This document shows, one piece after another, positions 25,276 to 64,000 of a stretch of DNA of 64,000 nt. The DNA comes from an uncultured bacterium (lineage in GTDB: Bacteria > GCA-001730085). A program made the position numbers and the translations under genes. The stretch's first letter is position 1. Every line of letters starts with the position of its first letter. The DNA lies in contig CAZMGY010000012.1 in NCBI GenBank assembly GCA_964565945.1, positions 1,966 to 65,965 on the forward strand. The letters run 5' to 3'. Under the pieces are notes generated by a model. That model searched no databases and was not told where the DNA came from. It saw only the letters and a list, made by a program, of their open reading frames with translations.

Positions 25276-25284
25276 GGTGCTTTT

Positions 25285-28066: not shown

Positions 28067-29083
28067 TTGCGTTTTGCAGAACCTTGGTTATGGTTGGGCG
28101 TGCTTGCCTGTATTGTTTTAGGGGCGTGTTTGTTGGTATGGATCTACGTGATCCGTCGCAAAACCCTTCGTTCCTGGGGGGAACATGTTTTTATAGTGCC
28201 TTTGTTGGCACATGTGAGTGAAGCGTTCTATTGGCTTAAGCTTGCTTTGCTTATTGTGGCGGGATCTTTGATGTTGGTTGCCTTAACCCGTCCTCAATGG
28301 GGTGAGCGTTCCGTTGAAGCGAAGCGAGAAGGTGTGGATATTATTGTGGCGATTGACACCTCATTAAGTATGTTGGCTCAAGATGTCAAGCCCAATCGCT
28401 TGAGCAAAGCGAAGCGAGAAGTTAGTTTTCTTATTGAGAATGTTCAAGGAGATCGTTTGGGATTGGTGGCCTTTGCGGGTCAAGCCTTTATTCAAGTTCC
28501 ACTGAGCACCGATCGCGCTGTGACTAAAATGATGCTGTCTTTGATCGATGTGAACACGATTGCCAGTCAAGGAACCTGTTTGGCCGAAGCGATTTTTGTT
28601 AGTCGTAAGGCTTTTGATCAAGGAGAAACTAAATACAAAACTTTGATTTTAATCACAGATGGTGAGGATCATGAAGGGGAGGCGTTGCAGCAAGCTGAAC
28701 TGGCTGCCAAAGAGGGGATTCGTATTTACACAGTTGGTTTGGGTCATAAAGAAGGCGCGCCGATTCCTTTGTTGGACGATCGAGGTCAAGTGACGGGTTA
28801 TAAGAAAGATGCTCAAGGGAAGGTGGTGATGTCACGCGTGGCAGACAAAAGTCTTAAACAAATAGCTAAAATTACTCAAGGTGCTTATATTCATGGTTTG
28901 CAAGGTGGTTGGAACTTAAAGGGAATTTATGACATGATTTCTAGCCTAGAAAAAAAGGGAATAGAAAGTAAGCTTGTGATTATGTACGAAGATCGCTATC
29001 AATTTATTTTGGGCTTGGTTTTATGGATTCTTTTATTGGAGAGCTGTTTTACTGTTCGCCGCCAGAGAGGAGGGTTTTCATGA
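28067..29083 (+). CDS. batB: BatB-like VWA-domain membrane protein
   Basis: 338 aa. N-terminal TM helices, MIDAS 'IVAIDTSLSM', 'LITDGEDHEG', and a C-terminal TM helix. Confidence 0.8.
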   Translation: MRFAEPWLWLGVLACIVLGACLLVWIYVIRRKTLRSWGEHVFIVPLLAHVSEAFYWLKLALLIVAGSLMLVALTRPQWGERSVEAKREGVDIIVAIDTSLSMLAQDVKPNRLSKAKREVSFLIENVQGDRLGLVAFAGQAFIQVPLSTDRAVTKMMLSLIDVNTIASQGTCLAEAIFVSRKAFDQGETKYKTLILITDGEDHEGEALQQAELAAKEGIRIYTVGLGHKEGAPIPLLDDRGQVTGYKKDAQGKVVMSRVADKSLKQIAKITQGAYIHGLQGGWNLKGIYDMISSLEKKGIESKLVIMYEDRYQFILGLVLWILLLESCFTVRRQRGGFS

Positions 29084-30327: not shown

Positions 30328-30361
30328 GTTCATAGTATAATGTAACAGATTTTTTTGAAGA

Positions 30362-32236: not shown

Positions 32237-33009
32237 AACGATGGGGATTTTTGGGGCTTTGGTTTTTGTGCATGATTGGCTGGGGTTGGAGTGCCGAAGA
32301 GGATTATCAAAGTTACTTTGAGCAGGGGGAGTCTTTTTATCAAAACAATCAGTTTGATAAGGCCGTTGAACAGTACACCATTCTCTTGGATAAGGGCTAC
32401 GAAAATGTCGCTGTTTGGTATAACTTAGGGACATCTTATGTGGCTCAAAACCATTATGGGTGGGCCATTTGGGCTTTTGAAAAAGCACGTTTGTACAATC
32501 GTTCCGATCAACATGTTGTGGACAATTTGAACTATGCTTTGGACAAAGTTGGCTTAGAAAGACGTGTACAAATAGGGCCAGTTGAAGAGATGCTTTGGGG
32601 AGCTGTTTATGCATTGCCTTGGAGTTATTGGGCACTTATGGTTATTGGGGGTTATTTACTTTTCTGGTTGACTGCTTTGGCTCGAAAGTTGAATTGGCGC
32701 TTATTGAAAAGTTATGGATTAAGCTTTGTGAGCGTTTTTTTGTGTCTGTTTGCTACTATTAATGTGTCTTTACAATGCTATTATTTTTATACCCCAAAAA
32801 AAGGTGTTGTTGTGGCGCCCAAGAAAGTTCTTAGAGGAGGGCCATCTGAGGGTTTTTCTTCAGTGGGGGTCATTCCAGAAGGGGCACTGTGTCAGATTGT
32901 GCAAAACGAGGGGTCGTGGTTCGAAGTGGAAGCTGCTGGAGGAGAACAGGGTTGGCTTCTTAGCGTTGAGGGCTTTAAAGTTTTGTCGAATGAAAGGGTG
33001 ATTATGTGA
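32233..33009 (+). CDS. batE: BatE-like TPR + SH3b-domain protein
   Basis: 258 aa. ATGA overlap with batD. Signal peptide, TPR motifs (AVEQYTILLDKGYENVAVWYNLGTSY...), a TM helix, then a C-terminal SH3-like segment (GSWFEVEAAGGEQGWL). Confidence 0.75.
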   Translation: MKRWGFLGLWFLCMIGWGWSAEEDYQSYFEQGESFYQNNQFDKAVEQYTILLDKGYENVAVWYNLGTSYVAQNHYGWAIWAFEKARLYNRSDQHVVDNLNYALDKVGLERRVQIGPVEEMLWGAVYALPWSYWALMVIGGYLLFWLTALARKLNWRLLKSYGLSFVSVFLCLFATINVSLQCYYFYTPKKGVVVAPKKVLRGGPSEGFSSVGVIPEGALCQIVQNEGSWFEVEAAGGEQGWLLSVEGFKVLSNERVIM

Positions 33010-53900: not shown

Positions 53901-56900
53901 GCTGCTATGGTGTCTACAGGAGGGGCTGCATTACCTCTAATTTTTGCTGCTTTCGCTTTTGGAGCGGCGTATTCTTTGATCCAAACCACTATTTATTACG
54001 ACAAGTATCGTCAGGCGGATACTAAAGCCGAAAAAGAAAAATATTTAAAGTTAGCTTCAAAGTATGCGGCTTATGCGATTACGATTCCTTTTGAGATCGT
54101 TTTCTTCTTCACTGGTTTGCTGGGTTTGGCCGCCACGGCTTTGCGCAGTTGGGATGACTTGTGGGATTCGATTAAGGGCTTTTCGGTGATGTACCTTGGC
54201 TTTATGGAAGGACTTCTTGGTTTTCCCGAGGGTTGGATCTATGACAACATGGTGTCTTTTATGGTGGATTGGGTGGATGAGTTTGGCGGAGATCTTGGAG
54301 GTTCTTTGGCTGTCTTACCATTGTTACTGATTATGGTGTTTGTTGCTGCGATTATTGCAGGTCCAATTGCTATGATTTTTGTGTTGCCATTGCTGTTTGC
54401 TTGGGCTGATGTATCTTTCCTCTACACCGATGAACAGAAACAGAACGTCGAAGTTAAAATCGAGGAACGTCAAAACGCTCTTTTCACTGAGCAGCATCGA
54501 CATATCACACGAACGATTGCAGCTCTGATAGGTATCCTTATGTTGCGTGCTTGGAGTCAAAGTAAAGCGCAAATGAAGCATAAGGTAAAATTGGCGGATA
54601 AACAAATCAAGGCTTTTAATAAACTCAAGCAGGTTGAAAAGCAAAATCAGAAAAACCTAAAAATGACTCGAGAGCAAGTGGTTGAGTCCAATGCCCGTAT
54701 TCGCATGATGGAAGCCAAAATGTGGAAAGAGATTAAAACGAGTACAGATTTGAATCAAGCGAAGCTTTTTTGGCACAAAGTTGGTTCACTTGTATCGTTG
54801 CCAATACGAGTCTTGCATTTTATTGTGACAATCCCTTTTATGGTGTACGGTCTTTTGAATGGTTTAATGATGCGCTCGCTCTCCAACATACGTCAAAAAC
54901 CAATTAGCTACTTGAAGGGTAAGGCGGTTGACGCGGCTAATCGTTCACGACGATCACAAGAGGTGACAAAAACTAATTTGACACAGAAACAGGAAGCCTC
55001 TCGTGAATCGTTCACCTTGTCGCAACGTTTGATTACCAGTATTAATCAGATTCGTAGGGGATGGGATCAGGTTAAGGATGTGATATTCCGTTCTCGCAAG
55101 GAGCGCATTTTGCGTCCTCTTGATACAAAGTCAGGTGTTGTAGGCTTCTCTTCGGGGCGTGGCATTATGGATTATCAGAGAATGTACAAAGGTCGTCCAG
55201 AGGTTAGCTCGGGGCTTGCTTTGAGCGGAGTTAAGCAAAACGAGAGTGGTAAGTTTGAAGAGAAAACACCTCAAGAATTGATTAATACTCTTAAACAGTC
55301 CGAAAGACATTTGGCTGAGAGTGTCCGCAAATGGGAGACCCAAACCTATAAAGCTTACTTGCAATTAAAGTCGGATGGCGTTCAGTCTCAAAGCAAAAAA
55401 GGCGAAAAGACGGTGAGTGATGCAAGTGCTGTGATTCAAGGTGAGCGCTTCTTGTGGGATAACGTGTTGCCAAGCTACGAAGTTCAAAAAATGGATTTTA
55501 GCAAAATGGGCTTTAAAAAGTTTGTGTCGCGTGCTTGGTGGGGACGTTTTTCGACCAAAGCTTACTGGCGTGATGTCTGGGAGGGTATGAAGTGGGATAA
55601 GCGTGACCCGAATGATCCGGATCAGCCTGGTACCCTTGCCAAGTCAGGGCGATTTTTCTCTCGTGCGTCTTTTGCCTTAAAACGAGCTATTATGAAAGAT
55701 CAAGCTAAGGGTGGGTCTTGGGCTGAAAGTGTTCGTTACAATGCTTTGCTCAAGCAGCAGATGGGAACTAAGAAAGCTAAGGTTTTCAAAGAACGCCTCG
55801 AAGAATCTCCGCAACAATATATGCGAACTCTTGCTCAGTGGATGGCTGAAGGTCAGTTGCGTGAAGGGAATGTGAATAGCCGTGGAGGGCAAGTGAGACA
55901 TAAATTATTTATGGAGCATGCGCTTAAAGATATTATCGCTTTTCAAAACGGATCAAATCTTTCCGCCAAGGCTCTTGACGGGGCTTTTTGGAAGACTTTG
56001 CATGAGGAAAGCACACAAAGTCTTCAGGGAATGAACAAATTTTCTCGTTTAGAACTACAAGTGATTGAAGCTTATTGGAATGTGCTAAGTAAGTATCAGG
56101 GGGCGAACTCTTTAAGTGGGATTGATAAACTTGAAATACGTAAAGCCTTAGAGCACGAATTGGTTGAAAGTTTTGTGAATCGGATGGACGGTGTAGCTGT
56201 GATGTTGCGTTATTCCGAAGTGCGTAACGAACAAGGTGAACTGACCAGCTATGATCTGGAGCGGGCAGAAGCCTTTATGCAAAAAGGTTTCTTTCAGTTC
56301 AGTGAGTTCTTTTTGCCGAAGTTACGAGCGTTTAAAAATGTCTATGGTGGTTATGACGGCCGCGAAGAGAGTGGCAATATGGTTCTTAACCGCAAAGGCG
56401 ACAGTCCAGATCACTTTAACGATATGTACAAAGCGCTTAAAGAGAATCAATCGGATGCTTTCTTGCGAGAAGTTGCCTTTCAGTTTCAGCGTATGCCAGA
56501 AAGTGGCCTGTTTTCTCGCAAATTAAAGGTTGAAACCAAGACTTTGAATAGCATGGCAGAAAACTTAGGGAGAAACAACTTTGAGAGTTTAACAACGGCT
56601 CAGCAAACGGCTGTTTTGATTCGTATTCTTGAGAGACGGGGTCTTTTGGAAAATATGAAGAAAATGCTGGGTGAAAAACAGATTGAGTTGGTTATTCTTG
56701 AACATTTAACAGATGCTAAGTCGATTCAGGCCACTGTGATGGAACTTTACAAGGAAGCGACCAAGCCTCCAACAGATCCAAAAGCACCTAAGCCAACGGT
56801 ACCTTCGGATGTTAATCAGCTGCGTCAAGAGTTTGGTCAAAGCAACGCTAACTCTAAAGTGGTTCAAGAGATGAATAGCTTGTTCGAAATTACGGAACCT

Positions 56901-59900: not shown

Positions 59901-62900
59901 CATATTGTCAAGCAGATAATTGGTGACGGGTATGTGGCTCTTAAGGAAAAAGGTATTACGGCCGAAAAACTGATGGAGAGGCTTGAAATCCAAGTCCAGA
60001 ACATGATTACAAAGACGCTGAAAAAGATCCCTACCGACTCTTCGATAGAGGGTCATCACGCTCTCGTGGTGGATTATACGGTTTCAACCCGAATGGAAAA
60101 TCTACATACTCTGCTCGAGGAAGCGGCTAAGGCCAACAAAGATGTGATTGTTAAGGATTTGACTGGAGAATGGCGTTTGTTCTTGCATAAAGAAAAACAA
60201 AATTGGGTTAATCGTGAAACAGGTCAGATTGAATTTTCACGTACTTTGCGCTTCGATCAAGATATGGCCAAGTCGTTGCTTGATAAAGGTAAAACAGAGG
60301 TTCCTGCCGAATTTGTGGCCGAGATACAAGCCCGTGGTCTAAAACTAACCCAGGGTAGAAAAGGTGAAATGCTATTGTACCGCAACGGTAGCGAACCTGG
60401 TCAGTTGAATGTAGATATTGGAGCTGTTTATTTATTCCCCGCGGGTGCGACGGGAACCAACTTGGAGATGAAAGCGAGTGGAAAATTTCGCCAAAAAATC
60501 ATTAAGATTTTTGATCGTCAGATGCTCGAGAAAGAGTTTCAACAAGGTTTGGGTCGTGATCGCGGAGTGCGTGTTGAACCTGTGGACGGTGTGGGTTTTA
60601 AATTGCCATCGGAGCGTCACGTTTACTTTATGTCGCCCGAAGGTAAATACCAGTATGAAGGGGTGAAGGGGCAGGTGAAAACGGGTAATATGTTGCACAG
60701 CAATGGAACGGTTGATTTGCATCAGCTGTTTCATATGCTTCGCACCAACCAAGAAGTGAATACTAAAGTACAAAACTTTCGTCAGGCCAGTGAAGCTTTG
60801 TATGAACCGCATAATCGGGTGGTTTCAGAAGTGTTGCGCTTAATTCGTCCTCATGAAGAACAATTGTTCCATGTGAAAAAATTGCTTAAAGATCACTTGA
60901 AAAACATTCAGAACGAAAAGCGCGAAGCCTTTCGTGTTTCCCTTTTGGAGACTAAGAGTACAACTCTCGTTTTGCAAGATATGGCGCGTAAAGCTAACAA
61001 TCAAATGATTAAGTTGCTTGATGCTCTCGAAGGGAAGGGCCTAAAAATGAATTTTGCCAATCTTATGGGACAGGGAGAAGTGTTGTCAGCGATTAATCGC
61101 ATGCCAGCCAACCGCACCTTCAACCTTCTTCGCAGTGATGTGAAGGAGCTTTTGCAAACGCATCGAGATGGTTTAAAAGGCGACTTGCGTTTTGCTGATA
61201 TTAGTCGCGCTGTACCTGAAGGTGGTTTGATGAATGCGAAAACAATGGCTGATGTGATTAATGTGATTAGCAGTTTGGGTCGCGATGCTTTATTGGCTAA
61301 AACTAGCCAACGGACGTATTCGGGTGAAATTTCGCGTCAAACAGTTTCGGCCAAATCGATGTCTGGTTTGGCTGAAAATGCTTACAAACGATTGCGTTCT
61401 GATGGTGCTATTAGTCAGAAACAATGGCAACTGGCTCAAAATCGAGCCAAAACCAAGATGATGAAGTTACATCGCTATAGCAAAGTTCGCAAACGTTTGC
61501 GTTTGGACGAAGCGAACCGTAGCGATGGTGTTAAGTCCAATAGTTTCTTCAAACGGATGTGGAATTATCGTTCAAACCAAGAGAAACGTAAGCCTGTCTA
61601 TGCTCAGTGGAATGTTGAGACGCGTGATGAGCAGTTTGAAAAAGTGATGAAGTCTGACGCTCTCTTGCGCAGTGAGTACATGGTGGAAACCATGAATGCA
61701 TTGTTTGCCCAACCCGACGTCGCAATTGAAAAACGTTATCGTGAAGCTCTCGATAAAGTCGTTAAAACTTTTGGTGCCAAAAGTTGGCGCCCCGCAACTC
61801 CTAAGGTTTTGGATGCAGATTCCTTGTATAAACTCTACACTGAATACCATTTTTACAATAAAACGGCGTTGCTGATGCACGTGAAAGAGTTTGATTGGTT
61901 GCGTGAACTTTTTTTTGGAGAACTTAATGTGGATAACGATACCGTTGTATTAGATGATGGCGTATCGGTTTTTGCTCACAAGGATATCACGGCGCAGTTA
62001 GAAAAAATGGTCACAGACGAGCTTAGTCCGTTGCACCAAGCGATCCAAGCGAAACATGCTTCGGATAATGCTGTTAGGGTTCAGCAAGTGACGCTTAATT
62101 CGCGTTGGACTGGCGAACAAAGCGATCAACTGATTCATGTCTCTGTCCAGTTTTCTGATGAATTGACGGGGGATAGTTACCAAGAGGATGTGACCTTTGT
62201 TTATCGCAATTACAAAAGGTTCCTGTGGCAGCTCCCAAATCATCGGCAACTTGTCACAGTGGCCGATTATTTGGGAGCTGCCACAGGAACCTTTAATGAA
62301 AACAAGGTGTTGAAGCTGGGTGAGCTTGCTGGACGTGAAGTACTTCGTAAGATGAATACTCGCATACGTACTGAACTAGAAGCAGAACAATCTTTTAAAA
62401 TATTCATTCAAAAAGCTTATCAAGATGGTTTGGATTTGGCCAAAGAGGTTGGCTTGCAGGATGAGTTGCTGCAGCGATTCTTGGAAGAATATCAAAAGGG
62501 CCTTGCTGGGACAGCACCCAATGCTTCATTAAGAGCTCGTTTGACCCAGTTGGGTACTTCTGAACACAGGGGGGCTAACTTTGTGCGCCACTTTATAGTG
62601 CTGGATCAATTGGTGCAAAAGATTGAGAAAGCTGGTGTTTTCAAAAAAGGTTCTTTGGATCGTTCCAAATTACGTCAGAAGATACTGAGTGCTCAGGTGA
62701 GCGTTCTAAAGCATGCTCGAAGCGACGCAGATGATAAACAACCAAAAGCTACGGATAAGGTTGAAGAAACCTTATCCCTAAGGCAGGCGGTGCTTAAACT
62801 TCAGCAAGAGCCAGGCAATGCTCGTTTGGAGGTCGCTATTAACGAAAGGCTCAAATTACTTGTGGAAAGCGAGCTGAAGGTTCAAACGCGTCAACGAGCT

Positions 62901-64000
62901 GATTTCTCTCAGAAAGCTTTGACATCCTATGCACCATCGGCCAAGTGGTATGCACGCTTTTTCCGTTGGAGTATTCGCCGCTCGCCGATGAGTGACAAAG
63001 ATATTAAAGCGGCTGTTAAAGAAATTGATGCCAAAGATTGGGTCAGAGATGTGATTAAAGAGGTGGTGAAAACCACAGGTGTTAATCGTGTCGGAGATAT
63101 TCTGCAGTCTGGTGATAAAATCGATCCTCATTTTGAAGACAAAAAAGACTTTAAGTTGAGAGAAGTTGCAGCTCAATCTTTGAGTTGGTTGCAAGAGCGT
63201 CGTAAACAAGAGGCTGGTATAGATCTGAATGCCATGGGCGGTTTGGGTGGATTCCCTGGAATGGATTTTGGATCGATGGCGGGTGGCCAGGAAACGGGTG
63301 AACTTGTGATTGATCTTAAACAGCTAGCTGCAGAAATGGGTATGAATCAGCAGGAGTTGCAGAACAAACTTCACGAAGTTATCTTGGGTACCAAGGAGGC
63401 GGGTGTGCGTTTGGAGCAAACACGCCTATGGCAACAACGCTATCTAACAGTTAAAATGTACAAAGAATGGAAAGCGATTATCTTGTATTTGGCACAACAG
63501 TCTCAATCGGATGCAACCATGATGGATAAGCTGCGACCCTTGTTGGAAGATATCTATGTGCATGATCGTGACAATATCATTGAATCTGGTCAAGCGTCGG
63601 TGTCACCGTTGGCCAATATGAAAACTTTAGAAGAAGTTCAAAAACACTGGTTTGAGATGAAAGAGAAGGACTACGAATTGCGTGATAAGAAAGCCAAGTT
63701 GACCCAATTGGAAGAAGATCTTAAACCTCTTTTGCCTAAAACGGAGACCCAGCAAGATGGAGATAATCTGGATTCCTCTCAAGCCGTTAAGCTTACTGAA
63801 GAACAAGAAACGAAGAAAAAGTCGCTCGAAGAACAAACAGCTAAGTTTAAAGAAGAGATTGCTAAGCTTGAAGAATCGCTTGCTGTCCTTGGAGATCAGA
63901 TGGATAAGAAGCTTCGTTTAGGAGTGTTTGCTGACCTTTATCGCGAGTTGATGGGAATTCATGGCTTGTTGGAGAAACGCTCGGAGACGGGGCAGTTAGA
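35943..64000 (+). CDS. Giant protein (at least 9,352 aa within the window; 3' end beyond the window): signal-like N-terminus, about 5,700 aa of YD/RHS-type repeats, a multi-TM block, and more than 3,000 aa of a helical C-terminal region with a DExH-like motif pair
   Basis: Hand-translated frame (position mod 3 = 0) open from ATG 35943 to the window edge with no stop. In-frame TAA at 35874. All seven short + strand ORFs the track lists after 35.9 kb lie in the same other frame (start position mod 3 = 1). Own promoter and RBS. Recurrent YD motifs (YDSDGNLAEF, YDERGNVLGY, YDKAGRLSTF, YDYAGRVKGF, FDRAGRILGY, YDGLGRLNAY, YDALGRRQTY, YDSLGRSLTQ...) and YNALGQ variants. Confidence 0.85.
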   Translation, partial: MQKVQDKSRILAQSRLSSFMKVMSLLVVEFFIATSMDLAYAQYSAPSAIRNASHGSNYLRGLNLHQERQRRKKLKKRRDQHSSQRNRAISGLTQQSLAHKLQSFGAEALYQFEEMRAVAEQATQTLDDALKNLTAFVEPDKDGIGVRHYRLGRLDKLENVYENNADGSAYRRTVLFNYVDDGDPDSEIASYVEMRQSVFVDESGQEYLSGIYSSTEWRGRYDSDGNLAEFTRVDTDDFGEVVTTRWEAMIHDEKGQALTHDEDGQEIKYFDERGNVLGYTEMITDSEGNTTSTVRSPFYTSYDDVEDRVTSFLDIYTDEYGHKTQTHMTEMDYVTLDDLGHYRSEITDLDTKKMTTVIYDATYMSQRDGGTGNRVIQSSEVRINHRGEKNTTLWVLGDKGYDKYGNALSYEKRITSADGRYEVERWDNGQFHHGNLLSYDSERELFNALGQLIEREKVLSYEAFYDGRGNLIDYIRESTITTYRDVIEENLLDYLWEDFSETMESLDQEGQRQFLISQGVDISDEEWEILDQDIWDRETLREKISRFVEQVVDLVKWELISQSAWDAYSLEQKRAFLAETDFVIDDVSWSGLTEEAKLNLVNERKNQRIEQHQLSILDQALDNYRADERAKLIDEKSVEYATLVLKRTDTVISSGLWNQLTNFQKQIFLNARSIETADNFFDLDTEAQFESLPRHYRGKYREQDHVVVTSEVTEHWHKAKYSDNDLLLYNEQVTDTNVYREEGDARELIQKTKETNIRNAQMDDSYAKGRLQHYKDYNYVEYRDQENESVQSTFSENETRVLSFNSRRAATAYETESRVVKDLYARDDVQTAIEKLFSEDMYELAKLVKSLSVGEFNTMFRGFDYLNERFNAYPNYSQFLKVVDDNSELLKNLQDEIKTKGLPGSLQFNFAKMMSSLSFANFPDFAKVMTDLPATTETSLRRENIVFDIDNRMMGYEESGTNEDGQDYTTQMYDIKYDGRGLMSEYGNSSTVEGVRTDVHRFNMAYDLQDRALGYTEEIYSQGEFNVVQMKQMVYDFAQRLSGYERYVFGETGQQVSWERQSDMVYDNLDNVLSYNAHRVSGGQESVDIRWEAVVFDAQGRVIEGSPYNEDGRILGFRETGVDVATQRRYEVVSSGYEYSVVPEKMNRAVLSYNTQRNEYDSQGTLMETENVIWSAKVNEKNQSYVNGQVVGYIEESTNSVDGKHKTDVQNSYDERGNRVGVDTSIHFYTFMGAKNRVEKSVWEGDYDEDGLLVNSRQSSTVNGVAVDTISYSGESLEQYVMALEQGLYTIDLRYLLNDISGDGSVDAVDVAVFTQKSYQEFLQAVLNDTLTLSALEQAVNLYISDDALHKSSLVDMIQLMKRGEGDQMSQTEMIQDILKFLIKDSNGDGQIDAVDVRFMTEPALSMLLNDTLAQSKSVGDLAQDFLKLYLTDRNGDQRITSDDLQNDDQIRTTINTVLKDRWTESVRENISYKELSFRRVRDGQVVVEKVRIGNPVTYREITRRAESPQLWQVSDVSDISLDGDGTMLNYTSMIQNIETIDDKSLLNFSWGKVSANIDQYADPEGVRTWELRRYKTLQRNARGFVTRYSERRTEPQTDPQKVQSFEATPLVIDIHWSGTYRNGQMFTFNESKRRRGEVFVKNHYQGKDLLQMMESLVEQKSYNVYFDLVKSDGQAGVDAKITQEDLDYLRKHLLRDPNYIIEWVESDSLDVFSRDERVYTLYNTLGQVTGFQTRSFNSASPRKETILTRSNIMTNDLGLEMSFNEHVQKKGEGSQFWIDSSEANLPTEWATLTLDEKRQLLRGETMVLNGRNVSLVKIGTSHIYKDIYTFQANTVYDYAGRVKGFTRSDREMGQNQQGWRVLDVFNVTERRDMAYDKAGRLSTFTETRRLGQAPDVIETIERLSTEYNDAGYVDAFEQVESRKGEQQETRVPFGALPAFLKKNALLTPAQIAAIYSGQRVDISEVVNENRDLFADMDGLEQVGDSYYIKLDTVTSQSEVNTLNRRTRENITYNALGFEKSFKELSVDELGVHRLTLQFDIRQNGLGQVVSFDQSVRRYLPEAREDISDTFVVLPQEISESEWKDLALAKKLAFLRGDQLVRVVQGSTIRYLTQEEFSEFSEENEPKQYEARPLRVQLIQESLLEDYARSYFESQDMAMWSYLSQEGGAMIRHRDVQEVALDELTFLSRRKATYNDFDQMVTYVDESWNASTPGLKQVSIRTSTEYDSVGNIVGFRVEDISHGELSVRKFDLNRLEVIDGQGEIAVFDMAGIGGFERLMPEEQMKLRSGKSIMIDDQEVRLAFKTVMQTFETSRVTERKNMRYNFLGQLTDYTDITIESTSPDLSLETTVSGVLYNALGQQIRLVQSQKREGTTQNEVSYQGEALIEKLHALAGLSEKGELKSQFAQWSLFDLNGDGVIDTQDIDLVEPDTLVSYLQIVELKDVQTQLRDMITYTTLGQSKGFRQISINSTEPHVREVLVRHHTAYNLAGFELSYQETVTRTGQIAQDMTSTFVMPNDWSEDQWQQLWQKGGTFDQMTEQQQRVLFTGGAVVLGDQTYQFELYTQAQKGEKPHMEVLTSSQNSHYRMIAEVVAEYGKAGAWSSQVEGYVRTLLEQILQNRSESDVINPADVQAVVNRFLEELEGTLVGDENQSQKHGEMGQNDSTEVQSQHFKILRSLLLGPEDGVNGFVLDLVDQVMNQVGAVTERSLRTITKKIVFERNEMEQRSREDATYNAFGQLMSYVDNVYEPLLNQKVTTQRLLTQFDRAGRILGYQDHVVRSGLALQNDQIDYSRVERLGSGERSWDDLTFIEVKALYRGEAVLMNGVLMTLDDLRIDKVIRLYEVEDHVRQNMVYDQNNQLRSFAEQRFNHNNQRLSTQQRSGMLYNSLGQVTEYIDNTLDEGTVELEDGSFMDLSQSSRVHRSNIQYVDNRIYAYTDVSRSSQSEETQVSVRESTHYNALGQVMAYRNNNHRFLFEGRQTILSVRNVNERTGIVYNALGQNMAYSDYQWNSSEPANASWSYRSDVQYDGLGRLNAYTDRTRTLQSPDMRETLVMNNIQHNALGLQQSYTELRIQESLLEDSQGEPLYQRLQKNNYQDITYDALGRRQTYLRSAVTSDAPDMVINTTWTALAYDEKLGVVSVYRDQSERIGTDGTRVMLTTIHDQVKFDRAGREMSYREQVTDSSRPGVKQKRLRIDTGYDTFGRVAQYEESNAQYNNNLLLNYVLTNRNNTYNTMSQVESYVEKRTTNGLESLAERYEMAYNSFGQLESYEEVTESPSTRLRMSAWGLTYDSLGRSLTQNTRSVDSEGNVNITYNWGMRYDTSGRTIFRNEDRILNGVRSLGIQWYAGLIQGSGEDENEPKFDQDGEPFFIKKPSFDEFGNILSTTEIRVDDQGHINVNVSEYSYDAYSHRDSVQSLSYSYTSNDLNDLGTIQVSEVTTTSWDVTDGYLTLTFDVLNQNGDIVGTQTVEGGYVLGSEQMQRRYLITDDGQRVLKQVGNDGEEDVYFDITYSRQSFAYNDVADQTFLGSESFKYSLSQEATGADLTDFVYESSRYRQTMYGDNNRRIQEVTLQNERGVYGWDVLRDELGIDHEVWSEVGDQLVNLRKYLVTQQNEIKVGVPGAQEQANARIAEVNSSITTLLRQAGVSSEMIRTSLNQVFGSPPSSVSLDGVIENLLGVQILSSSTLSVVDTDGYDQVSGRPLLERERQYTHRSGFDVRSDNSDWNYQKFRSGNVKIDQMLAAKDSFILVQDETRNYSYDENGVRTAIVTEDGLSGFREESFNMEYRFDGLVKSRVMLRTAPGAGGKIQTSAYNQISYTYHPNGRIAQTRVRLYESYDGVRGGGLRGLLREEVIDDVYDFERNVLVQKVSTQWGFSETDGSRLLVNRQVDDSTYSLFNRVNGLIRSMYKSEDGAENSVILDNQEIFSNYYYSSHGQVLSQSVRKLDYSVVDVEEAGLADEINGLSVTDNAETMQEKIIDTYVAWWKRRYGLEKVDGLLEHVIDVFMDLLLAPTNIARTAKDILEVAIYVLGEAFKSSKEYLRNAGYSVNEKYMSYLVGDELSHRMMSYRKDGRVSGSQDLTYDIDGVVKEKRTLSYVYEQELNETFKTNRIAAQNQRNYMWDEEGKVWSLDSGADVQITYDQFNRVSSRLVTSIDKNGHYAESTEYLFEYDHLNRVTRETQRLLDPSASRSETSSLSRSRKAIGTLKSLSEEIRDYRYDAMGQQRSVSVRQNDLGVVRAENPSEIRTSYNTVLTRTKNGAREEFFDDEGNLYQVVTHQFTFDVNDNLILDEKMTLRYNEQGQEISRQIQEIRNQKFDKNGRVLHRNTQTFDILDGQRVSVGREEVQTIYQGMNYRIQEEVITQYGYNRMQQGTEVPGVTTHVVYAYDAQNRMSKRTTVSYSDPNAQLIVVPSASALDVRNGDEGQTVEEQFIYDLSRRPIQTINKVYEGGELISENRRVSTYLTADPNDMRVDKQIVVQLDGAGEIRSIVVNSNYSYTEENRYQRGSSGAVEFGDSGSIENIGPIQRILLNTGYDTVSFTDSVDGISFDASGFMLMPSKETWGSLLNAKNKVTKKRTTSYDMLDRELHSEVKSYLQDSLIGRETVSYYYSEQRMGDDRAVIEDQRFYSQDDTFVRHIVQQNRYDALGRISQKDEFFLDPSTSSGGLIEQGVVLDSFIPKTGSLQFHRQILNMDYDGGFDRIIEQDEIVSANYIDQNNTGDGRNQITHSIFAYNNKGQIISSEKTRYQANTVQHNLEDFPRVIERETGHQYNQHGEVVSFQTLLDTYYLETLDSDQVVLRDRQGSDVTIFYHKPGQVSRRVRKNFDVTAINDLLSSAININVVQLRSGELIDTEVEQNTYDVQNRLKEVDRTFTFAGKEDAYRIYRRSLTYDSLQDRPKQEIGRNWNELDDRVTLSVTDNIFQGEFISQVFTRSSEIDVANDADRNFLLNMSSSAGVSARLNLSLESKRTVTNRVQNIHSWDSQGRAVRYSMKQYDERNPRRSTFIERKFTLFNNTDGGEDFYDETVREEIDGEVLSTREREYQAFWRDSRGRTRGYILSEKVRDKEGLLQTKQVITRLDTRFDVYDNEVKAFQEEQEYVNINLADDANVVWSMRSHVGRNVVSDYFSEGENKGRLSNETITLYKYDVAQSATNGSPVLLDREVLQREVLGYQRALANSERLTSRRYDATGHLVQHRISTSNRTFDEQDRMTLNDTVTIDKLRETRTIENMNVVSFDDFDNVVAFLQTRRVEDLNDSEILLEDQVVERRNSEFEGNLLIDSYEIVNNKLKNDVRHVIRRNRTYKFGQEASSNTYNFTVNVEDPVLRSVAVSPEQQINQILRKFGLRDVTSLDVKRQDGPEIFQDTYLKTLFARSDSEDLVGSSFTRSDTIFSDRGESYGYINYLWNKVGDYRLVKGPDGVYDYTFSQALNQFTYDIFFAGQIDLGAQGASTALSLEDHFKLENKDDVSVYLSDLETWLKTPGDNHIIYDGRDQTTGENREFTRISLRQIESFGNKGSFDFSPFMSFSPGDPFTGLKDEGLAAQVQDISLHFFNDPNVHDGVEYAHRIVRGEKRELALNRWVVGGKDRDKFNFTLVRRTDTDFYGDQVGEDFSNQGRYGQVKNYTEYSISPSGEESKVVRNNIHYYVPETLQLGQSKVNVGLERFYNETTYRRSDNFHAAHIRNHGVTGQIHHYSESSSHAGDWSDSRLEESGRIQYWEEDGEIIIHMDDFITRFSESYFVADFDKEDRKIRLKYKKGQVKSFREYTSSGEDAGTEFSSANNLYDPEGNAVFTERTVVRKRGRGIPDDNFDFEKTFNEYNSYGYLLRSHVYYNFDFAKVTTYYNMRTNSNDVGTLSHGARRHVAYMDQEDGQMYVQKYDLTGENAADKGKGFEAFLRNIYMMIEETLTNGGVFIVDKIFNSFLGFFGTDPVLEDELQIMRDNAHRVAMFRQVFEEDTKAFTKSLENLLGSEGAIIASIVLHGVLFVLAVAAMVSTGGAALPLIFAAFAFGAAYSLIQTTIYYDKYRQADTKAEKEKYLKLASKYAAYAITIPFEIVFFFTGLLGLAATALRSWDDLWDSIKGFSVMYLGFMEGLLGFPEGWIYDNMVSFMVDWVDEFGGDLGGSLAVLPLLLIMVFVAAIIAGPIAMIFVLPLLFAWADVSFLYTDEQKQNVEVKIEERQNALFTEQHRHITRTIAALIGILMLRAWSQSKAQMKHKVKLADKQIKAFNKLKQVEKQNQKNLKMTREQVVESNARIRMMEAKMWKEIKTSTDLNQAKLFWHKVGSLVSLPIRVLHFIVTIPFMVYGLLNGLMMRSLSNIRQKPISYLKGKAVDAANRSRRSQEVTKTNLTQKQEASRESFTLSQRLITSINQIRRGWDQVKDVIFRSRKERILRPLDTKSGVVGFSSGRGIMDYQRMYKGRPEVSSGLALSGVKQNESGKFEEKTPQELINTLKQSERHLAESVRKWETQTYKAYLQLKSDGVQSQSKKGEKTVSDASAVIQGERFLWDNVLPSYEVQKMDFSKMGFKKFVSRAWWGRFSTKAYWRDVWEGMKWDKRDPNDPDQPGTLAKSGRFFSRASFALKRAIMKDQAKGGSWAESVRYNALLKQQMGTKKAKVFKERLEESPQQYMRTLAQWMAEGQLREGNVNSRGGQVRHKLFMEHALKDIIAFQNGSNLSAKALDGAFWKTLHEESTQSLQGMNKFSRLELQVIEAYWNVLSKYQGANSLSGIDKLEIRKALEHELVESFVNRMDGVAVMLRYSEVRNEQGELTSYDLERAEAFMQKGFFQFSEFFLPKLRAFKNVYGGYDGREESGNMVLNRKGDSPDHFNDMYKALKENQSDAFLREVAFQFQRMPESGLFSRKLKVETKTLNSMAENLGRNNFESLTTAQQTAVLIRILERRGLLENMKKMLGEKQIELVILEHLTDAKSIQATVMELYKEATKPPTDPKAPKPTVPSDVNQLRQEFGQSNANSKVVQEMNSLFEITEPFKRAQKWTEHSESYVYNQARTNAMKLFAEESARHMDSLPERFALTNDSYTMTEIKDAMVKAIEPVLAKSITHKVDRQKAARKLAHEILESGATAGLIKVEKALYLETVSLFKLPQNIGKVIEQADLPAPVKEALLREVVLDQIVSALRLERVSLGNSGEGMIEVLSKNSEGRSELLFNYAKLIELIRKEGGKLDASKEVELLRILEATLYEVTGYSKNNAYREGINYEVKWSKFNEKYVGKGEQQGMINMEKLVHDLVEVYKKRFAGELSEAAVETLGHATGMFVTLSRQADTFARHWEKAEKVSFSFLPIQLEAVLAMLSGGNLALQIPTGFGKTNVITPFFALTFLGAGEYFPNSKKLILEVPEAGKVGEMDNAQFKMILEKEFGEGARERLTAQMLDAQVTSNPLEMQRLMKARVVFTATDCLNFLDLSARNPHKAKDSNAIALRDALVKGTTRIVDEIHKFVTQQKSFVTGTDAGEVAVGVRDAKLAHYITEQALNLIQEKLGKGEAIYNSQGGFASGAEKVLLGKRMGQGVLRFNPERVGNTDVAFSAAFKVELLRRLQTSRLDGFNLSSQAAKLMDRFGGRGEKELANRLKTLYKVGEHDVYSAPQFVFHYLDHLAQSFSGRTRVKELQNRYGPNQAYEVLLDSKSKMIERDEHGVPRVVPMSGGEKQVSQKYSNREHVLSIYYSTLAQHMFQDGRFTGSWKKSLIQDASRIKLQPDSYRLKLSDHLEMATRAGRVLGFSGSVVGSQQAFEFMMGMKVWTSQRAEYKLAGDTVGKYVIDPMMRLHQNEVSQIDSHGMREKFEKALTEGATVTPQYRQMIEKRLKERLRFEKESRMELAQIEGLLKEVPKIKDALWLREKTSSSEGKEAIRPGSTNPLTQRLFNEALRHQKIYDLSAKQVNEGYLKDRTINHDKLSPQDRSANYEVIKNEIVAEASYLRAKHEQALRHQAEMEKGTPLTKRELETLREKVMSIEETRQLASRLIELKTQGDVLGRHIVKQIIGDGYVALKEKGITAEKLMERLEIQVQNMITKTLKKIPTDSSIEGHHALVVDYTVSTRMENLHTLLEEAAKANKDVIVKDLTGEWRLFLHKEKQNWVNRETGQIEFSRTLRFDQDMAKSLLDKGKTEVPAEFVAEIQARGLKLTQGRKGEMLLYRNGSEPGQLNVDIGAVYLFPAGATGTNLEMKASGKFRQKIIKIFDRQMLEKEFQQGLGRDRGVRVEPVDGVGFKLPSERHVYFMSPEGKYQYEGVKGQVKTGNMLHSNGTVDLHQLFHMLRTNQEVNTKVQNFRQASEALYEPHNRVVSEVLRLIRPHEEQLFHVKKLLKDHLKNIQNEKREAFRVSLLETKSTTLVLQDMARKANNQMIKLLDALEGKGLKMNFANLMGQGEVLSAINRMPANRTFNLLRSDVKELLQTHRDGLKGDLRFADISRAVPEGGLMNAKTMADVINVISSLGRDALLAKTSQRTYSGEISRQTVSAKSMSGLAENAYKRLRSDGAISQKQWQLAQNRAKTKMMKLHRYSKVRKRLRLDEANRSDGVKSNSFFKRMWNYRSNQEKRKPVYAQWNVETRDEQFEKVMKSDALLRSEYMVETMNALFAQPDVAIEKRYREALDKVVKTFGAKSWRPATPKVLDADSLYKLYTEYHFYNKTALLMHVKEFDWLRELFFGELNVDNDTVVLDDGVSVFAHKDITAQLEKMVTDELSPLHQAIQAKHASDNAVRVQQVTLNSRWTGEQSDQLIHVSVQFSDELTGDSYQEDVTFVYRNYKRFLWQLPNHRQLVTVADYLGAATGTFNENKVLKLGELAGREVLRKMNTRIRTELEAEQSFKIFIQKAYQDGLDLAKEVGLQDELLQRFLEEYQKGLAGTAPNASLRARLTQLGTSEHRGANFVRHFIVLDQLVQKIEKAGVFKKGSLDRSKLRQKILSAQVSVLKHARSDADDKQPKATDKVEETLSLRQAVLKLQQEPGNARLEVAINERLKLLVESELKVQTRQRADFSQKALTSYAPSAKWYARFFRWSIRRSPMSDKDIKAAVKEIDAKDWVRDVIKEVVKTTGVNRVGDILQSGDKIDPHFEDKKDFKLREVAAQSLSWLQERRKQEAGIDLNAMGGLGGFPGMDFGSMAGGQETGELVIDLKQLAAEMGMNQQELQNKLHEVILGTKEAGVRLEQTRLWQQRYLTVKMYKEWKAIILYLAQQSQSDATMMDKLRPLLEDIYVHDRDNIIESGQASVSPLANMKTLEEVQKHWFEMKEKDYELRDKKAKLTQLEEDLKPLLPKTETQQDGDNLDSSQAVKLTEEQETKKKSLEEQTAKFKEEIAKLEESLAVLGDQMDKKLRLGVFADLYRELMGIHGLLEKRSETGQL
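36400..53500 (+). other. YD/RHS-type repeat array inside the giant ORF (protein-level repeats, degenerate at the DNA level)
   Basis: Dozens of Y-D-x-x-G-(R/N)-(L/V/I) and (Y/H)-N-A-(L/F)-G-Q motifs, typically 20-60 aa apart, across about 17 kb. Each is followed by an aromatic/hydrophobic beta-strand pattern as in RHS/teneurin YD shells. Confidence 0.6.
39835..40285 (+). other. Three dockerin/EF-hand-like calcium-binding loops within the giant ORF
   Basis: 'NDISGDGSVDAVDVAVF', 'KDSNGDGQIDAVDVRFM' and 'DRNGDQRITSDDLQND', all matching D-x-N/S-G-D-G-x-I/V-D-x-x-D. A fourth, 'DLNGDGVIDTQDIDLV', lies at 43175-43230. Confidence 0.45.
53847..54875 (+). other. Cluster of 6-8 hydrophobic (predicted transmembrane) helices inside the giant ORF
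   Basis: 'GAIIASIVLHGVLFVLAVAAMVSTGGAALPLIFAAFAFGAAYSLI', 'ITIPFEIVFFFTGLLGLAATAL', 'LAVLPLLLIMVFVAAIIAGPIAMIFVLPLLFAWADV', 'LVSLPIRVLHFIVTIPFMVYGLLNGLMM'. These sit directly after the last YD-type motifs. Confidence 0.55.
57877..58295 (+). other. P-loop / DExH-box-like motif pair (candidate SF2-helicase-like NTPase module) in the C-terminal region of the giant ORF
   Basis: 'LALQIPTGFGKTNVITP' (57877-57906). About 130 aa later comes 'TRIVDEIHKFV' (58272-58295), which resembles the RecG/Mfd-type motifs GDVGFGKT ... DEQHRFG. Confidence 0.35.

What the first reader, a model, noticed from the sequence alone, without database searches (positions are those of the whole stretch)
54900..64000. Over 3,000-aa charged, helix-prone, non-repetitive C-terminal region completely unlike the YD part
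From about 54.9 kb the composition switches to K/E/R/Q-rich sequence with many heptad-like stretches (e.g. 54560-54790, 59300-59900, 63600-64000) and no YD motifs. It is not low complexity and contains conserved-looking cores, for example 'WWGRFSTKAYWRDVWEGMKWDKRDPNDPDQPG' and 'RFFRWSIRRSPMSDKDIK'. A region this long on the opposite side of a TM block suggests a cytoplasmic scaffold or enzyme assembly, not a toxin tip.
Basis: partly seen in the sequence, partly recalled or inferred. Interest (0 to 1): 0.6.

Follow-up and report, generated by a model that had tools for sequence, protein, structure and literature searches.

The report
Orphan tail of a giant membrane protein
The last third of a 9,735-residue bacterial envelope protein lies after a block of membrane helices, matches almost nothing known, has one helicase-type ATPase domain near its middle and almost no cysteine, and so resembles, without detectable kinship, the giant membrane proteins recently described in predatory Omnitrophota bacteria.

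Summary
The region is real. Frame 3 is open from nt 35910 to the window end. It is one gene, starting at ATG 35943, and an independent assembly calls it as a 9,735-aa product. The layout is a signal-peptide-like N-terminus, about 5,900 aa of acidic, YD-enriched sequence, a hydrophobic block (nt 53844-54869), then about 3,426 aa (3,043 in the window). The tail is lysine-rich, non-repetitive and of normal complexity. Only about 3.5% of it is clearly heptad-like.

It does not break down into known domains. The one supported domain is an SF2 DEAD/DExH-type RecA1 ATPase fold (nt 57828-58304; Pfam DEAD 26.7 bits against a cut-off of 26). Its motifs are conserved at 72% identity in a metagenomic relative. 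A SecA-type assignment was tested and not met. The second ATPase lobe is unverified. The family is nearly orphan, with three short fragments as the only relatives found. The whole protein has a single cysteine where about 100 are expected.

Best reading (0.42): this is the cytoplasmic, membrane-tethered ATPase and scaffold part of a giant surface protein, analogous to Omnitrophota giants with a TM block and a SecA-like domain. Rival readings are delivered cargo, a nucleic-acid translocase, or an inert scaffold. I rate it a new variant of a known kind, of moderate interest.

The parts
35943..64000 (+). Giant ORF. It runs off the window, and the full product is 9,735 aa in an independent assembly.
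   Evidence: No stop in frame 3 from nt 35910. The start at ATG 35943 and the length of 9,735 aa come from the gene call on Logan contig SRR19984991_32918.
35943..36065 (+). Signal-peptide-like N-terminus (MQKVQDKSRILAQSR / hydrophobic core / LAYA|QY).
   Evidence: Hydropathy peak at aa 27-51 and the sequence itself. The cleavage site is read by eye; no predictor was available.
39657..45905 (+). Internally repeated part of the N-terminal region (aa 1258-3332), given for contrast with the tail.
   Evidence: Self-BLAST pairs with E from 1e-3 to 1e-11. There are faint Dockerin, EF-hand and RHS_repeat hits below Pfam cut-offs.
53844..54869 (+). Hydrophobic block of 5-7 candidate membrane helices with K/R-rich and acidic loops.
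   Evidence: Kyte-Doolittle peaks, loop charge counts, and an all-helical AlphaFold model with mean pLDDT 54.7.
54870..64000 (+). The tail, which is the finding: 3,043 aa in the window and about 3,426 aa in full. It is K-rich, non-repetitive and has a single Cys.
55536..55631 (+). It is followed by an 88-aa stretch with weak similarity to one HMG-box structure.
   Evidence: Coordinates. PDB chain 2co9 matches at E 0.015 and, on the short segment, 6e-4. The Pfam HMG_box model gives no hit, so this is probably chance.
56901..58379 (+). Stretch covered by the only sizeable relative (JGI 3300042700 contig). Identity is 34-47% upstream and 72% in the ATPase domain.
   Evidence: tblastn HSPs with E from 7e-8 to 2e-46.
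57828..58304 (+). SF2 RecA1 ATPase domain. Q-motif FSFLPIQ is at 57816-57836, motif I PTGFGKT at 57888-57908, VVFTATDCLNFLDL at 58152-58193 and motif II VDEIH at 58275-58289.
   Evidence: Pfam PF00270 DEAD at E 5.5e-6, 26.7 bits against a cut-off of 26, covering profile positions 2-132 of 167. The motifs are conserved in the relative. hhalign against a SecA-family alignment gives P 1.7e-4 and score 37.9, against 15.2 +/- 2.5 for shuffled columns.
58842..58979 (+). Conserved island (LDSKSKMIERDEHGVPRVVPMSGGEKQVSQKYS...) inside the long stretch that follows motif II.
   Evidence: 59% identity over 46 aa to ENA contig ERZ23832080 k127_2208690.
59130..59144 (+). Candidate motif III (GFSGS), about 285 aa after motif II.
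   Evidence: Read by eye only. No tool result supports it.
60027..60689 (+). Candidate second RecA lobe (GATGTN at 60444-60461, QQGLGRDRG at 60540-60566). It is unverified.
   Evidence: The motif VI-like pattern occurs once in 9,363 aa. There is no Pfam hit, no PDB hit, and hhalign gives P 0.39.
59787..59882 (+). Heptad or coiled-coil-like segment.
   Evidence: Above the 99.9% quantile of the shuffled null.
63621..63911 (+). Two heptad or coiled-coil-like segments (63621-63725 and 63798-63911).
   Evidence: Above the 99.9% quantile of the shuffled null.
62955..63008 (+).
   Evidence: Coordinates. No relative covers it and its function is unknown.

Best explanation
The tail is the C-terminal, probably cytoplasmic third of one giant envelope protein. 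From N- to C-terminus the protein has a signal peptide, about 5,900 aa of acidic YD-enriched exoplasmic sequence, a polytopic membrane block, and about 3,426 aa of tail.

Near the middle of the tail is a conserved SF2 (DEAD/DExH-type) NTPase module. The RecA1 lobe is demonstrable at aa 7307-7465. After its motif II come long stretches of unassigned sequence, and a possible second lobe lies at about aa 8040-8260. The rest is lineage-specific, mostly helical sequence with a few short coiled coils.

I propose that it works as a membrane-tethered ATP-driven motor or platform that serves the huge external part. It could help export or assemble that part, in cis or on sister copies, or it could couple cytoplasmic energy or signals to it. 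This is what has been proposed for the SecA-like domains that follow the TM anchors of Omnitrophota giant proteins.

Shown: a single ORF, the hydrophobic block, the RecA1 fold with intact motifs Q, I and II, and conservation of those motifs in a relative.

Inferred: cytoplasmic location, ATPase activity, the second lobe, and the role.
For: - Single uninterrupted ORF, and a 9,735-aa gene call in an independent assembly.
- Identical or nearly identical copies of the gene's first ~10 kb occur in several sequencing runs, with 0-1 differences and no stops.
- Hydrophobic block at aa 5979-6320, followed by a segment with 10 K/R against 2 D/E.
- Pfam DEAD at 26.7 bits against a cut-off of 26, E 5.5e-6, on aa 7295-7480.
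- The relative's fragment independently hits DEAD (1.7e-3) and ResIII (4e-3).
- Conservation peaks in the ATPase domain at 72%, against 34-47% upstream, with motifs Q, I and II kept.
- Profile-profile alignment to SecA NBD1 is in register for motifs I, Ib and II. P is 1.7e-4, and the score lies about 9 sd above shuffled columns.
- Exactly one DExH motif and one motif VI-like pattern occur in the whole protein, in the right order.
Against: - The second RecA lobe is not detectable by Pfam, by PDB sequence search or by hhalign. The ATPase could be incomplete or inactive.
- The number of membrane spans is ambiguous, and the loop charges fit best if the segment just before the block is also cytoplasmic. 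That conflicts with an exported N-terminal part.
- One cysteine in 3,043 aa, where about 32 are expected, is unusual for a cytoplasmic protein.
- About 85% of the tail has no assignable fold, and both AlphaFold runs were of low confidence (pLDDT 34 and 55).
- A motor at the C-terminus is made last, so it cannot drive export of its own N-terminal part unless it acts on other copies.
Confidence: 0.42

Rival explanations
1. Delivered cargo. The N-terminal part is a surface filament, the hydrophobic block is a translocation or pore-forming region, and the tail is passed into a prey or host cell. This is the logic of CdiA, Rhs and MARTX-type polymorphic toxins, on a much larger scale.
For: - The whole protein has a single in-frame Cys codon, while the two other frames hold 302 and 492 TGT/TGC codons. 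That near-absence of Cys is typical of proteins that cross envelopes unfolded; this comparison rests on general knowledge of RTX and type I secretion substrates.
- The relative has 0 Cys in 399 aa.
- The N-terminal part is YD-enriched, with an RHS_repeat hit just under the Pfam cut-off at 21.6 against 22 bits.
- The organism recurs almost clonally in at least 12 sequencing runs, which would fit a host-associated lifestyle.
- The best PDB matches of the ATPase domain, none of them significant, are eukaryotic helicases.
Against: - No toxin, protease or pretoxin domain was found.
- The loops of the hydrophobic block have strongly alternating charge, as in a stable polytopic inner-membrane protein.
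- 3,400 aa is far beyond any known toxin tip.
- An N-terminal Sec signal followed by internal membrane helices is the ordinary recipe for membrane anchoring.
Confidence: 0.15
2. Membrane-anchored nucleic-acid translocase or helicase. The DExH module moves or unwinds DNA or RNA at the membrane, for example in uptake of nucleic acid or in defence, and the rest of the tail binds nucleic acid.
For: - Pfam places the domain with DEAD/DEAH and ResIII helicases rather than with SecA_DEAD.
- The tail has a net positive charge and is lysine-rich.
- There is a weak HMG-box-like match to PDB 2co9, E 0.015 and 6e-4.
Against: - The HMG_box profile does not match.
- No PADLOC defence model matches.
- No nuclease or other nucleic-acid-binding domain was found.
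- There is no defence-island context. The neighbours are the Bat/MoxR operon and TrkAH.
Confidence: 0.15
3. A true SecA-type protein-export motor, that is, a divergent member of the SecA_DEAD family as in the Omnitrophota and Rickettsiales giant proteins.
For: - hhalign aligns RecA1 to E. coli SecA residues 74-220 in register. This includes VVFTATDCLNFLD against ITYGTNNEYGFD.
- The best local match of a SecA HMM and of hhalign falls on the SecA preprotein-binding motif (evDEKkrsveLTekG against LLDSKSKMIERDEHG), inside the stretch that follows motif II. That is where SecA carries its insertion.
- The architecture has a published precedent.
Against: - Pfam SecA_DEAD, SecA_PP_bind and P-loop_SecA give no hit even at E 10 on short segments. 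The Rickettsiales giants score 1e-35 to 1e-39.
- My own SecA HMM scores about 0 bits.
- Whole-domain hhalign gives P 0.39, and Smith-Waterman against SecA gives z of -0.5.
- The motifs are of the DExH type (PTGxGKT, DEIH), not SecA's (TGEGKT, DEVD).
- The Pfam DEAD match is far stronger than any SecA match.
Confidence: 0.12
4. A mostly structural cytoplasmic scaffold or anchor whose ATPase is degenerate and inactive. The tail merely holds or spaces the giant protein at the membrane.
For: - The second lobe is undetectable.
- Most of the tail is orphan, probably helical sequence.
- Short coiled coils lie near the C-terminus.
Against: - Motifs Q, I and II are intact, and this is the best-conserved part of the stretch for which a relative exists, at 72% identity.
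Confidence: 0.12
5. Artefact: a fusion of separate genes, a pseudogene or a misassembly.
For: None beyond the extreme length.
Against: - 9,363 codons carry no stop.
- Independent assemblies give the same gene call, and their copies of the gene's first ~10 kb differ from the window by 0-1 bases.
- Cysteine avoidance is specific to this frame.
- There is no excess of promoter-like sites.
Confidence: 0.02

Closest known systems
Omnitrophota giant proteins, especially the 'Dockerin-type' class (West-Roberts et al. 2023, bioRxiv 10.1101/2023.11.21.568195; Nielsen and Lui 2026, bioRxiv 10.64898/2026.06.07.730766)
   Same: - Very long single ORF.
- Long N-terminal part free of membrane helices, with adhesin-like or Ca-binding-like features.
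[quoted passage not shown]
- Most of the sequence cannot be annotated.
- A type IV pilus or type II secretion ATPase gene (PilT-like, nt 14381-15460) lies 20 kb upstream.
   Different: - No detectable sequence similarity to anything of that kind in 1.84 billion representative proteins.
- The ATPase matches Pfam DEAD/ResIII, not SecA_DEAD.
- Dockerin hits are below the cut-off.
- No peptidase C39/S8 or CAZyme domains.
- 9,735 aa is small by their standard.
- The phylum of this organism is unknown. Its GroEL is only about 65-67% identical to those of many phyla.
Plasmid-borne giant 'SecA-like domain proteins' of Rickettsiales symbionts of Euplotes (Ca. Megaera polyxenophila CP113870.1, 5,225 and 1,589 aa; Ca. 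Bandiella woodruffii NZ_CP110822.1, 2,966 aa)
   Same: Very large, lysine-rich bacterial proteins that carry one SF2 ATPase embedded in unannotated sequence.
   Different: - They hit SecA_DEAD, P-loop_SecA, Helicase_C and SecA_PP_bind strongly.
- They have normal cysteine content, 0.7-1.1%.
- They show no similarity to this protein by BLAST or phmmer.
SecA (bacterial preprotein translocase motor)
   Same: - SF2 RecA1 fold with motifs in the same order.
- A long stretch after motif II, where SecA carries its preprotein-binding domain.
- Membrane-proximal action.
   Different: - Fails every SecA-specific sequence test.
- Has DExH rather than DEVD.
- About 300 aa of charged, probably helical sequence lies between the two putative lobes.
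- No scaffold or wing domains.
DExH/ResIII-type SF2 helicases (Pfam PF00270, PF04851; the best but non-significant PDB matches are MDA5 and DDX52)
   Same: Q-motif, PTGxGKT and DExH motifs, and the Pfam match.
   Different: - No Helicase_C lobe is detectable.
- Fused behind a polytopic membrane block in a 9,735-aa envelope protein.
- Very long unassigned stretches follow motif II.
Rhs/YD-repeat and CdiA-type polymorphic toxins
   Same: - The N-terminal part is enriched in YD and YDxxG motifs.
- The protein ends in a region unrelated to the repeats.
- Cysteine is almost absent.
   Different: - The RHS_repeat hit is below the Pfam cut-off.
- No Rhs core, pretoxin or toxin domain.
- The 'tip' is about 3,400 aa, sits behind 5-7 hydrophobic helices and contains an ATPase.

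Membership tests
SF2 helicase-type NTPases (Pfam DEAD PF00270 / ResIII PF04851) | RecA1 lobe with Q-motif, motif I (GxGKT) and motif II (DExD/H), scoring above the family cut-off | tested here: met
   PF00270 scores 26.7 bits against a cut-off of 26, E 5.5e-6, profile positions 2-132 of 167, on aa 7295-7480. On longer queries it scores only 18-23 bits. The relative's fragment hits DEAD at 1.7e-3 and ResIII at 4e-3. The motifs are conserved.
SF2 helicase-type NTPases | Second RecA lobe (Helicase_C, motifs IV-VI) | tested here: inconclusive
   No PF00271 hit on aa 8040-8260. No PDB hit. hhalign against SecA NBD2 gives P 0.39. The only positive sign is by-eye motifs: GATGTN, and QQGLGRDRG, which occurs once in the protein.
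SecA_DEAD-type motors (Pfam PF07517, PF01043, PF21090) | Match to the SecA_DEAD profile | tested here: not met
   No hit at E up to 10 on short segments. My own 13-sequence SecA HMM scores about 0 bits. The Rickettsiales giants score 1e-35 to 1e-39 with the same Pfam model.
SecA_DEAD-type motors | Preprotein cross-linking domain inserted after motif II | tested here: inconclusive
SecA_DEAD-type motors | Helical scaffold and wing domains | tested here: not met
   No SecA_SW (PF07516) hit anywhere. These domains are also absent from the published giant-protein SecA-like domains.
Omnitrophota-type giant membrane proteins | Architecture: giant ORF, TM anchor(s), and an intracellular SF2 ATPase after the anchor | tested here: met
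   compared with the description read.
Omnitrophota-type giant membrane proteins | Sequence homology to described members, or an Omnitrophota origin | tested here: not met
   No hit beyond two short fragments in 1.84 billion representatives. No hit in two word-indexed searches. Nothing in species-representative genomes. The organism was not identified.
Omnitrophota 'Dockerin-type' class | Dockerin domains above threshold | tested here: not met
   Dockerin_1 scores 14.6-18.5 bits against a cut-off of 22.9.
Rhs/YD polymorphic toxins | RHS/YD repeats above threshold and a C-terminal toxin domain | tested here: not met
   RHS_repeat scores 21.6 bits against a cut-off of 22 in the N-terminal part only. 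No toxin domain was found in the tail.
Coiled-coil proteins | Heptad periodicity over a large share of the sequence | tested here: not met
   Only 105 of 3,043 aa exceed the 99.9% shuffled null in a crude register scan. No standard predictor was available.
HMG-box DNA-binding domain | Match to the family profile | tested here: not met
   One PDB chain (2co9) matches at E 0.015 and 6e-4, but the Pfam HMG_box model gives no hit at E up to 1.

The most novel reading that the evidence does not exclude
This is a previously undescribed family of giant envelope proteins that is essentially free of cysteine. In it, a DExH-type SF2 motor, not a SecA-type one, has been fused independently behind a membrane block. 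If so, coupling an SF2 ATPase to a giant exoprotein is a convergent, general design rather than a peculiarity of Omnitrophota SecA-like domains. Alternatively, in the bolder version, the 3,400-aa ATPase-bearing tail is itself exported or injected into a prey or host cell.
Probability: 0.25. Interest if true: 0.75.

Novelty: new variant of a known kind. Interest (0 to 1): 0.48.

Why it matters
Giant bacterial proteins with a membrane anchor and a cytoplasmic SF2 domain have so far been described by bioinformatics only, and nobody knows what the ATPase does.

This example has practical advantages. At 9.7 thousand residues it is small for the class. It has a clean three-part layout of signal peptide, exoplasmic part, membrane block and tail. 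It has a single ATPase with intact motifs, and it occurs almost clonally in many public sequencing runs, so the organism may be obtainable. That makes it a workable case for testing whether such motors export or energise their own giant exoprotein.

Three features need explaining in their own right: the near-total lack of cysteine on both sides of the membrane block, the lack of homologues among billions of proteins, and an ATPase that belongs to the DEAD/DExH group rather than the SecA group.

Tried and rejected
- Word-indexed homologue searches with the whole tail and with aa 7290-7800 found nothing. I spent the third search on E. coli SecA to build a comparison set, but it returned only enterobacterial sequences more than 91% identical, which were useless for a profile.
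- HMMER against 1.84 billion representatives with aa 7201-8400 found two short fragments only.
- Scans of species-representative genomes, JGI metagenomes, viral contigs, plasmids and phages found no relative. As a result, the last 383 codons and the downstream genes could not be read.
- AlphaFold without an alignment gave unusable models. The ATPase region had pLDDT 34 and the TM block had pLDDT 54.7. No fold search was run on them. Alignments containing the metagenomic relatives are not accepted by the structure tool, and threading onto a SecA alignment would have been circular.
- SecA hypothesis. By eye, the motifs looked SecA-like. Smith-Waterman, my own SecA HMM, hhalign and Pfam did not support anything beyond generic SF2 homology, so I rejected membership.
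- HMG-box. One PDB chain matched but the Pfam profile did not. I treat it as chance.
- NCBIfam, PADLOC and PHROGs gave nothing significant. Rfam found only the tRNA.
- Taxonomy from GroEL against the plasmid collection was uninformative, at about 65% identity to many phyla. A literature search for the run accessions found nothing.
- Motif regexes for common catalytic sites (HExxH, GGDEF, CxxC, LPXTG, GDSL) gave no match; a strict [AG]xxxxGK[ST] Walker A pattern also found none because motif I has Ile at its first position (IPTGFGKT). GxSxG, HxKxxxxD and EAL-type patterns each matched once or twice without supporting context.
Full report
**What is there.** The window is a bacterial chromosome segment in which every convincing gene lies on the + strand. 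The genes are RarA/MgsA, NadC, GroEL, PurA, AccC, UvrD, a PilT-like ATPase, the Na+-NQR operon, a MoxR/DUF58/BatA-D operon and TrkA/TrkH. GC is about 0.43 and GC skew about +0.19. Directly after trkH, frame 3 opens at nt 35910 and has no stop up to nt 64000, a run of 9,363 codons. Below, 'aa' numbers count codons from nt 35910. Gene calls on independent Logan assemblies of the same organism start the gene at ATG 35943 (codon 12). On an 88.9-kb contig they give a product of 9,735 aa with no Pfam hit on record. The gene therefore ends about 383 codons beyond the window. The first ~10 kb of the gene in seven other assemblies differs from the window by 0-1 bases and contains no stops. The finding is thus part of one real gene, not several genes or a pseudogene. 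There is also no excess of promoter-like sites inside it: 17 found against 19 +/- 4 expected.

**Checking the observation.** Hydropathy shows an N-terminal hydrophobic segment (aa 27-51) and one hydrophobic block at aa 5979-6320, nt 53844-54869. After the block, 3,043 aa remain in the window, or about 3,426 aa in the full protein.

The tail differs from the N-terminal part in composition:
- K rises from 3.7% to 8.9%, A from 4.3% to 7.5% and L from 8.0% to 10.6%.
- D falls from 8.1% to 4.8% and Y from 5.3% to 2.6%.
- Net charge per residue goes from -0.049 to +0.021.
- E, Q and R are almost unchanged, so the 'K/E/R/Q switch' is really a lysine switch.

Complexity is normal, at 3.78 bits per 50-aa window against 3.79. 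Self-BLAST finds repeats only at aa 1258-3332. YD dipeptides number 3 where 3.9 are expected in the tail, against 51 where 25 are expected in the N-terminal part, which also has 28 YDxx[GN]. A crude heptad-register scan, calibrated on shuffled sequence, passes only three short segments (nt 59787-59882, 63621-63725 and 63798-63911), or 3.5% of the tail. 'Many heptad-like stretches' is therefore overstated.

**Topology.** The N-terminus reads like a Sec signal peptide: basic MQKVQDKSRILAQSR, a hydrophobic core, then LAYA|QY. This was read by eye. The block holds 5-7 candidate helices, and its loops alternate between K/R-rich (7 K/R in 25 aa; 18 in 71 aa) and acidic (1 K/R against 10 D/E in 51 aa). 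The 40 residues after the last helix have 10 K/R against 2 D/E, which puts the tail on the cytoplasmic face by the positive-inside rule. No helix count satisfies every loop if the N-terminal part is outside, so the exact topology is open. An AlphaFold model of the block without an alignment is all-helical but of low confidence, pLDDT 54.7.

**Domain content.** Pfam, NCBIfam, PADLOC and PHROGs were run on halves and on 700-, 450- and 120-260-aa pieces. They give no significant hit in the tail except one. That hit is PF00270 (DEAD/DEAH helicase). It scores 18 bits on a 4,763-aa query, 22.6 bits on 700 aa, and 26.7 bits (E 5.5e-6, cut-off 26) on aa 7295-7480. There it covers profile positions 2-132 of 167, with ResIII second at E 0.054.

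The sequence carries these motifs:
- Q-motif FSFLPIQ
- motif I, PTGFGKT
- VVFTATDCLNFLDL
- motif II, VDEIH

They are the only such motifs in the protein, apart from one motif VI-like QQGLGRDRG about 750 aa further on. A second RecA lobe at aa 8040-8260 is plausible by eye. It is not supported by Pfam, by PDB sequence search or by hhalign. PDB sequence searches give only non-significant SF2 matches, to MDA5 and DDX52. The N-terminal part has only sub-threshold RHS_repeat (21.6 against 22 bits), Dockerin and EF-hand hits.

**Relatives.** The family is nearly orphan:
- Two word-indexed searches of 5.8 billion clusters found nothing.
- HMMER against 1.84 billion representatives found two fragments.
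- Scans of species-representative genomes, JGI metagenomes, viral contigs, plasmids and phages found nothing.

Reading the fragments' contigs was informative. A 1,597-bp JGI contig (3300042700) is a fold-back chimera with the same segments on both strands. Its pieces cover aa 6998-7490 of our protein. Identity is 34-47% upstream of the ATPase and 72% within it, and the Q-motif, motif I (ATGFGKT), VVFTATDTLNFLDL, VDEIH and FVTGTD are all kept. A 600-bp ENA contig matches aa 7645-7690 at 59%. The relative's RecA1 fragment hits DEAD and ResIII on its own. Within the stretch for which a relative is available (aa 6998-7490), the ATPase domain is the best-conserved part.

**Is it SecA-like?** Published giant proteins of Omnitrophota carry 'divergent SecA DEAD' domains after TM anchors, and by eye several motifs here resemble SecA. 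I tested this.
- I recalled the E. coli SecA sequence from memory. A match of 1,891 bits to PDB 2FSF confirms it.
- Smith-Waterman against it gives z of -0.5.
- A 13-sequence SecA/SecA2 set was taken from mislabelled 'plasmid' records. An HMM built from it scores about 0 bits.
- Whole-domain hhalign gives P 0.39.
- Only the RecA1 profile (our sequence plus the relative) aligns significantly to SecA residues 74-220. P is 1.7e-4 and the score is 37.9, against 15.2 +/- 2.5 for shuffled columns, in register for motifs I, Ib and II. That is what any SF2 RecA1 domain would do.
- Pfam SecA_DEAD, SecA_PP_bind and P-loop_SecA never appear for our protein. They score 1e-35 to 1e-39 on the giant 'SecA-like domain proteins' that I found on plasmids of Rickettsiales symbionts. 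Those proteins show no similarity to ours.

Membership in the SecA_DEAD family is therefore not supported. The domain is of the DEAD/DExH type.

**An unexplained feature.** The 9,363 visible residues contain one cysteine (aa 7422, inside RecA1, and a Thr in the relative). Nineteen other proteins of the window average 1.07% Cys, so about 100 would be expected overall and about 32 in the tail. In frame there are 0 TGT and 1 TGC codons, against 302 and 492 in the other two frames. The relative has 0 Cys in 399 aa, whereas the Rickettsiales giants have normal cysteine content. Cysteine avoidance is expected for exported fibres, but it is unusual for 3,000 aa of supposedly cytoplasmic protein.

**Interpretation.** The best-supported reading (0.42) is that the tail is the cytoplasmic third of a giant envelope protein. 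On this reading it acts as a membrane-tethered SF2 ATPase embedded in lineage-specific, mostly helical scaffold, and it serves the export, assembly or energisation of the exoplasmic part.
- Shown: one ORF, the hydrophobic block, the RecA1 domain and its conservation.
- Inferred: cytoplasmic location, catalytic activity, the second lobe, and the role.

The rivals are:
- delivered cargo in the manner of polymorphic toxins (0.15), which the cysteine depletion and the YD-flavoured N-terminal part favour
- a membrane-anchored nucleic-acid translocase (0.15)
- a genuine but extremely divergent SecA-type motor (0.12)
- an inert scaffold with a decayed ATPase (0.12)
- an artefact (0.02)

**Comparison and novelty.** The architecture matches the 'Dockerin-type' Omnitrophota giants: a long TM-free N-terminal part, then a TM anchor, then an intracellular SF2 domain. 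There is no detectable homology to them, the ATPase falls in a different Pfam family, dockerin is sub-threshold, and the organism is unidentified. I therefore rate it a new variant of a known kind. 'One gene' and 'not ordinary known domains' hold, and 'contains an enzyme module' holds. 'Cytoplasmic' and 'not a toxin tip' remain inferences.

**Limits.** Both AlphaFold runs lacked an alignment and failed to reach usable confidence, so no fold search was meaningful. No standard TM, signal-peptide or coiled-coil predictor was available. The last 383 codons and the downstream genes were out of reach.

Noticed in passing
window 35943-64000 (single Cys codon at about nt 58173): The giant protein has 1 cysteine in 9,363 residues, while neighbouring proteins have 1.07%. 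In frame there are 0 TGT and 1 TGC codons, against hundreds in the other two frames. The metagenomic relative also has none in 399 aa.
   Followed up: partly
L032 (JGI 3300042700, Ga0454360_27241, 1-1597): The only sizeable relative sits on a scrambled fold-back contig. The same coding segments occur on both strands in alternating orientation. This is probably an amplification or assembly chimera. One gene call on it is annotated 'phage tail tube protein FII', which looks wrong.
   Followed up: partly
L001, L002, L004-L017 (Logan contigs): The same organism turns up in at least 12 sequencing runs (SRR19984991, SRR23257855/75/92, SRR30621489/560, SRR30680197/226/230/250, SRR12008133/135) and in an NCBI contig of 139,777 bp. 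There are 0-1 differences over about 10 kb of the giant gene, so the population is clonal and possibly host- or culture-associated. The organism was not identified.
   Followed up: partly
L018 (CP113870.1) and L019 (NZ_CP110822.1): Plasmids of two Rickettsiales symbionts of the ciliate Euplotes woodruffi encode giant proteins of 5,225, 1,589 and 2,966 aa with strong SecA_DEAD, P-loop_SecA and Helicase_C hits. One also has a LysM domain. They are unrelated in sequence to the window's protein.
   Followed up: partly
window 39657-45905: The N-terminal part contains diverged internal repeats (aa 1258-3332, 22-35% identity) with faint EF-hand and dockerin-like Ca-binding loops. Further on there are RHS_repeat hits just below the Pfam cut-off (aa about 4171-4191 and 4392-4407).
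   Followed up: partly
window 55584-55847: An 88-aa stretch (GMKWDKRDPNDPDQPG...TLAQWMA) aligns along the whole HMG box of human TOX (PDB 2co9) at E 0.015 and 6e-4. The Pfam HMG_box profile does not match, so this is probably chance similarity of K-rich helices.
   Followed up: yes
window 1-35811: All convincing genes in 64 kb are on the + strand, with GC skew of about +0.19. The 2-kb bin at 22001-24000 is an exception, with skew of 0.05. It holds a 560-aa ORF (22093-23775) with no Pfam hit.
   Followed up: no
window 14237-15460 and 24286-33009: A tRNA-Ala(GGC) lies just upstream of a PilT-like type IV pilus or type II secretion ATPase gene. A complete MoxR-DUF58-BatA/B/TPR/BatD operon and trkAH lie immediately upstream of the giant gene. 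Published Omnitrophota giant genes are also reported near secretion and pilus genes.
   Followed up: no
window 54870-64000 compared with 36063-53729: GC3 is 0.427 in the tail, 0.376 in the N-terminal part and 0.403 in the other genes. The difference in codon composition between the two halves is small and unexplained.
   Followed up: no
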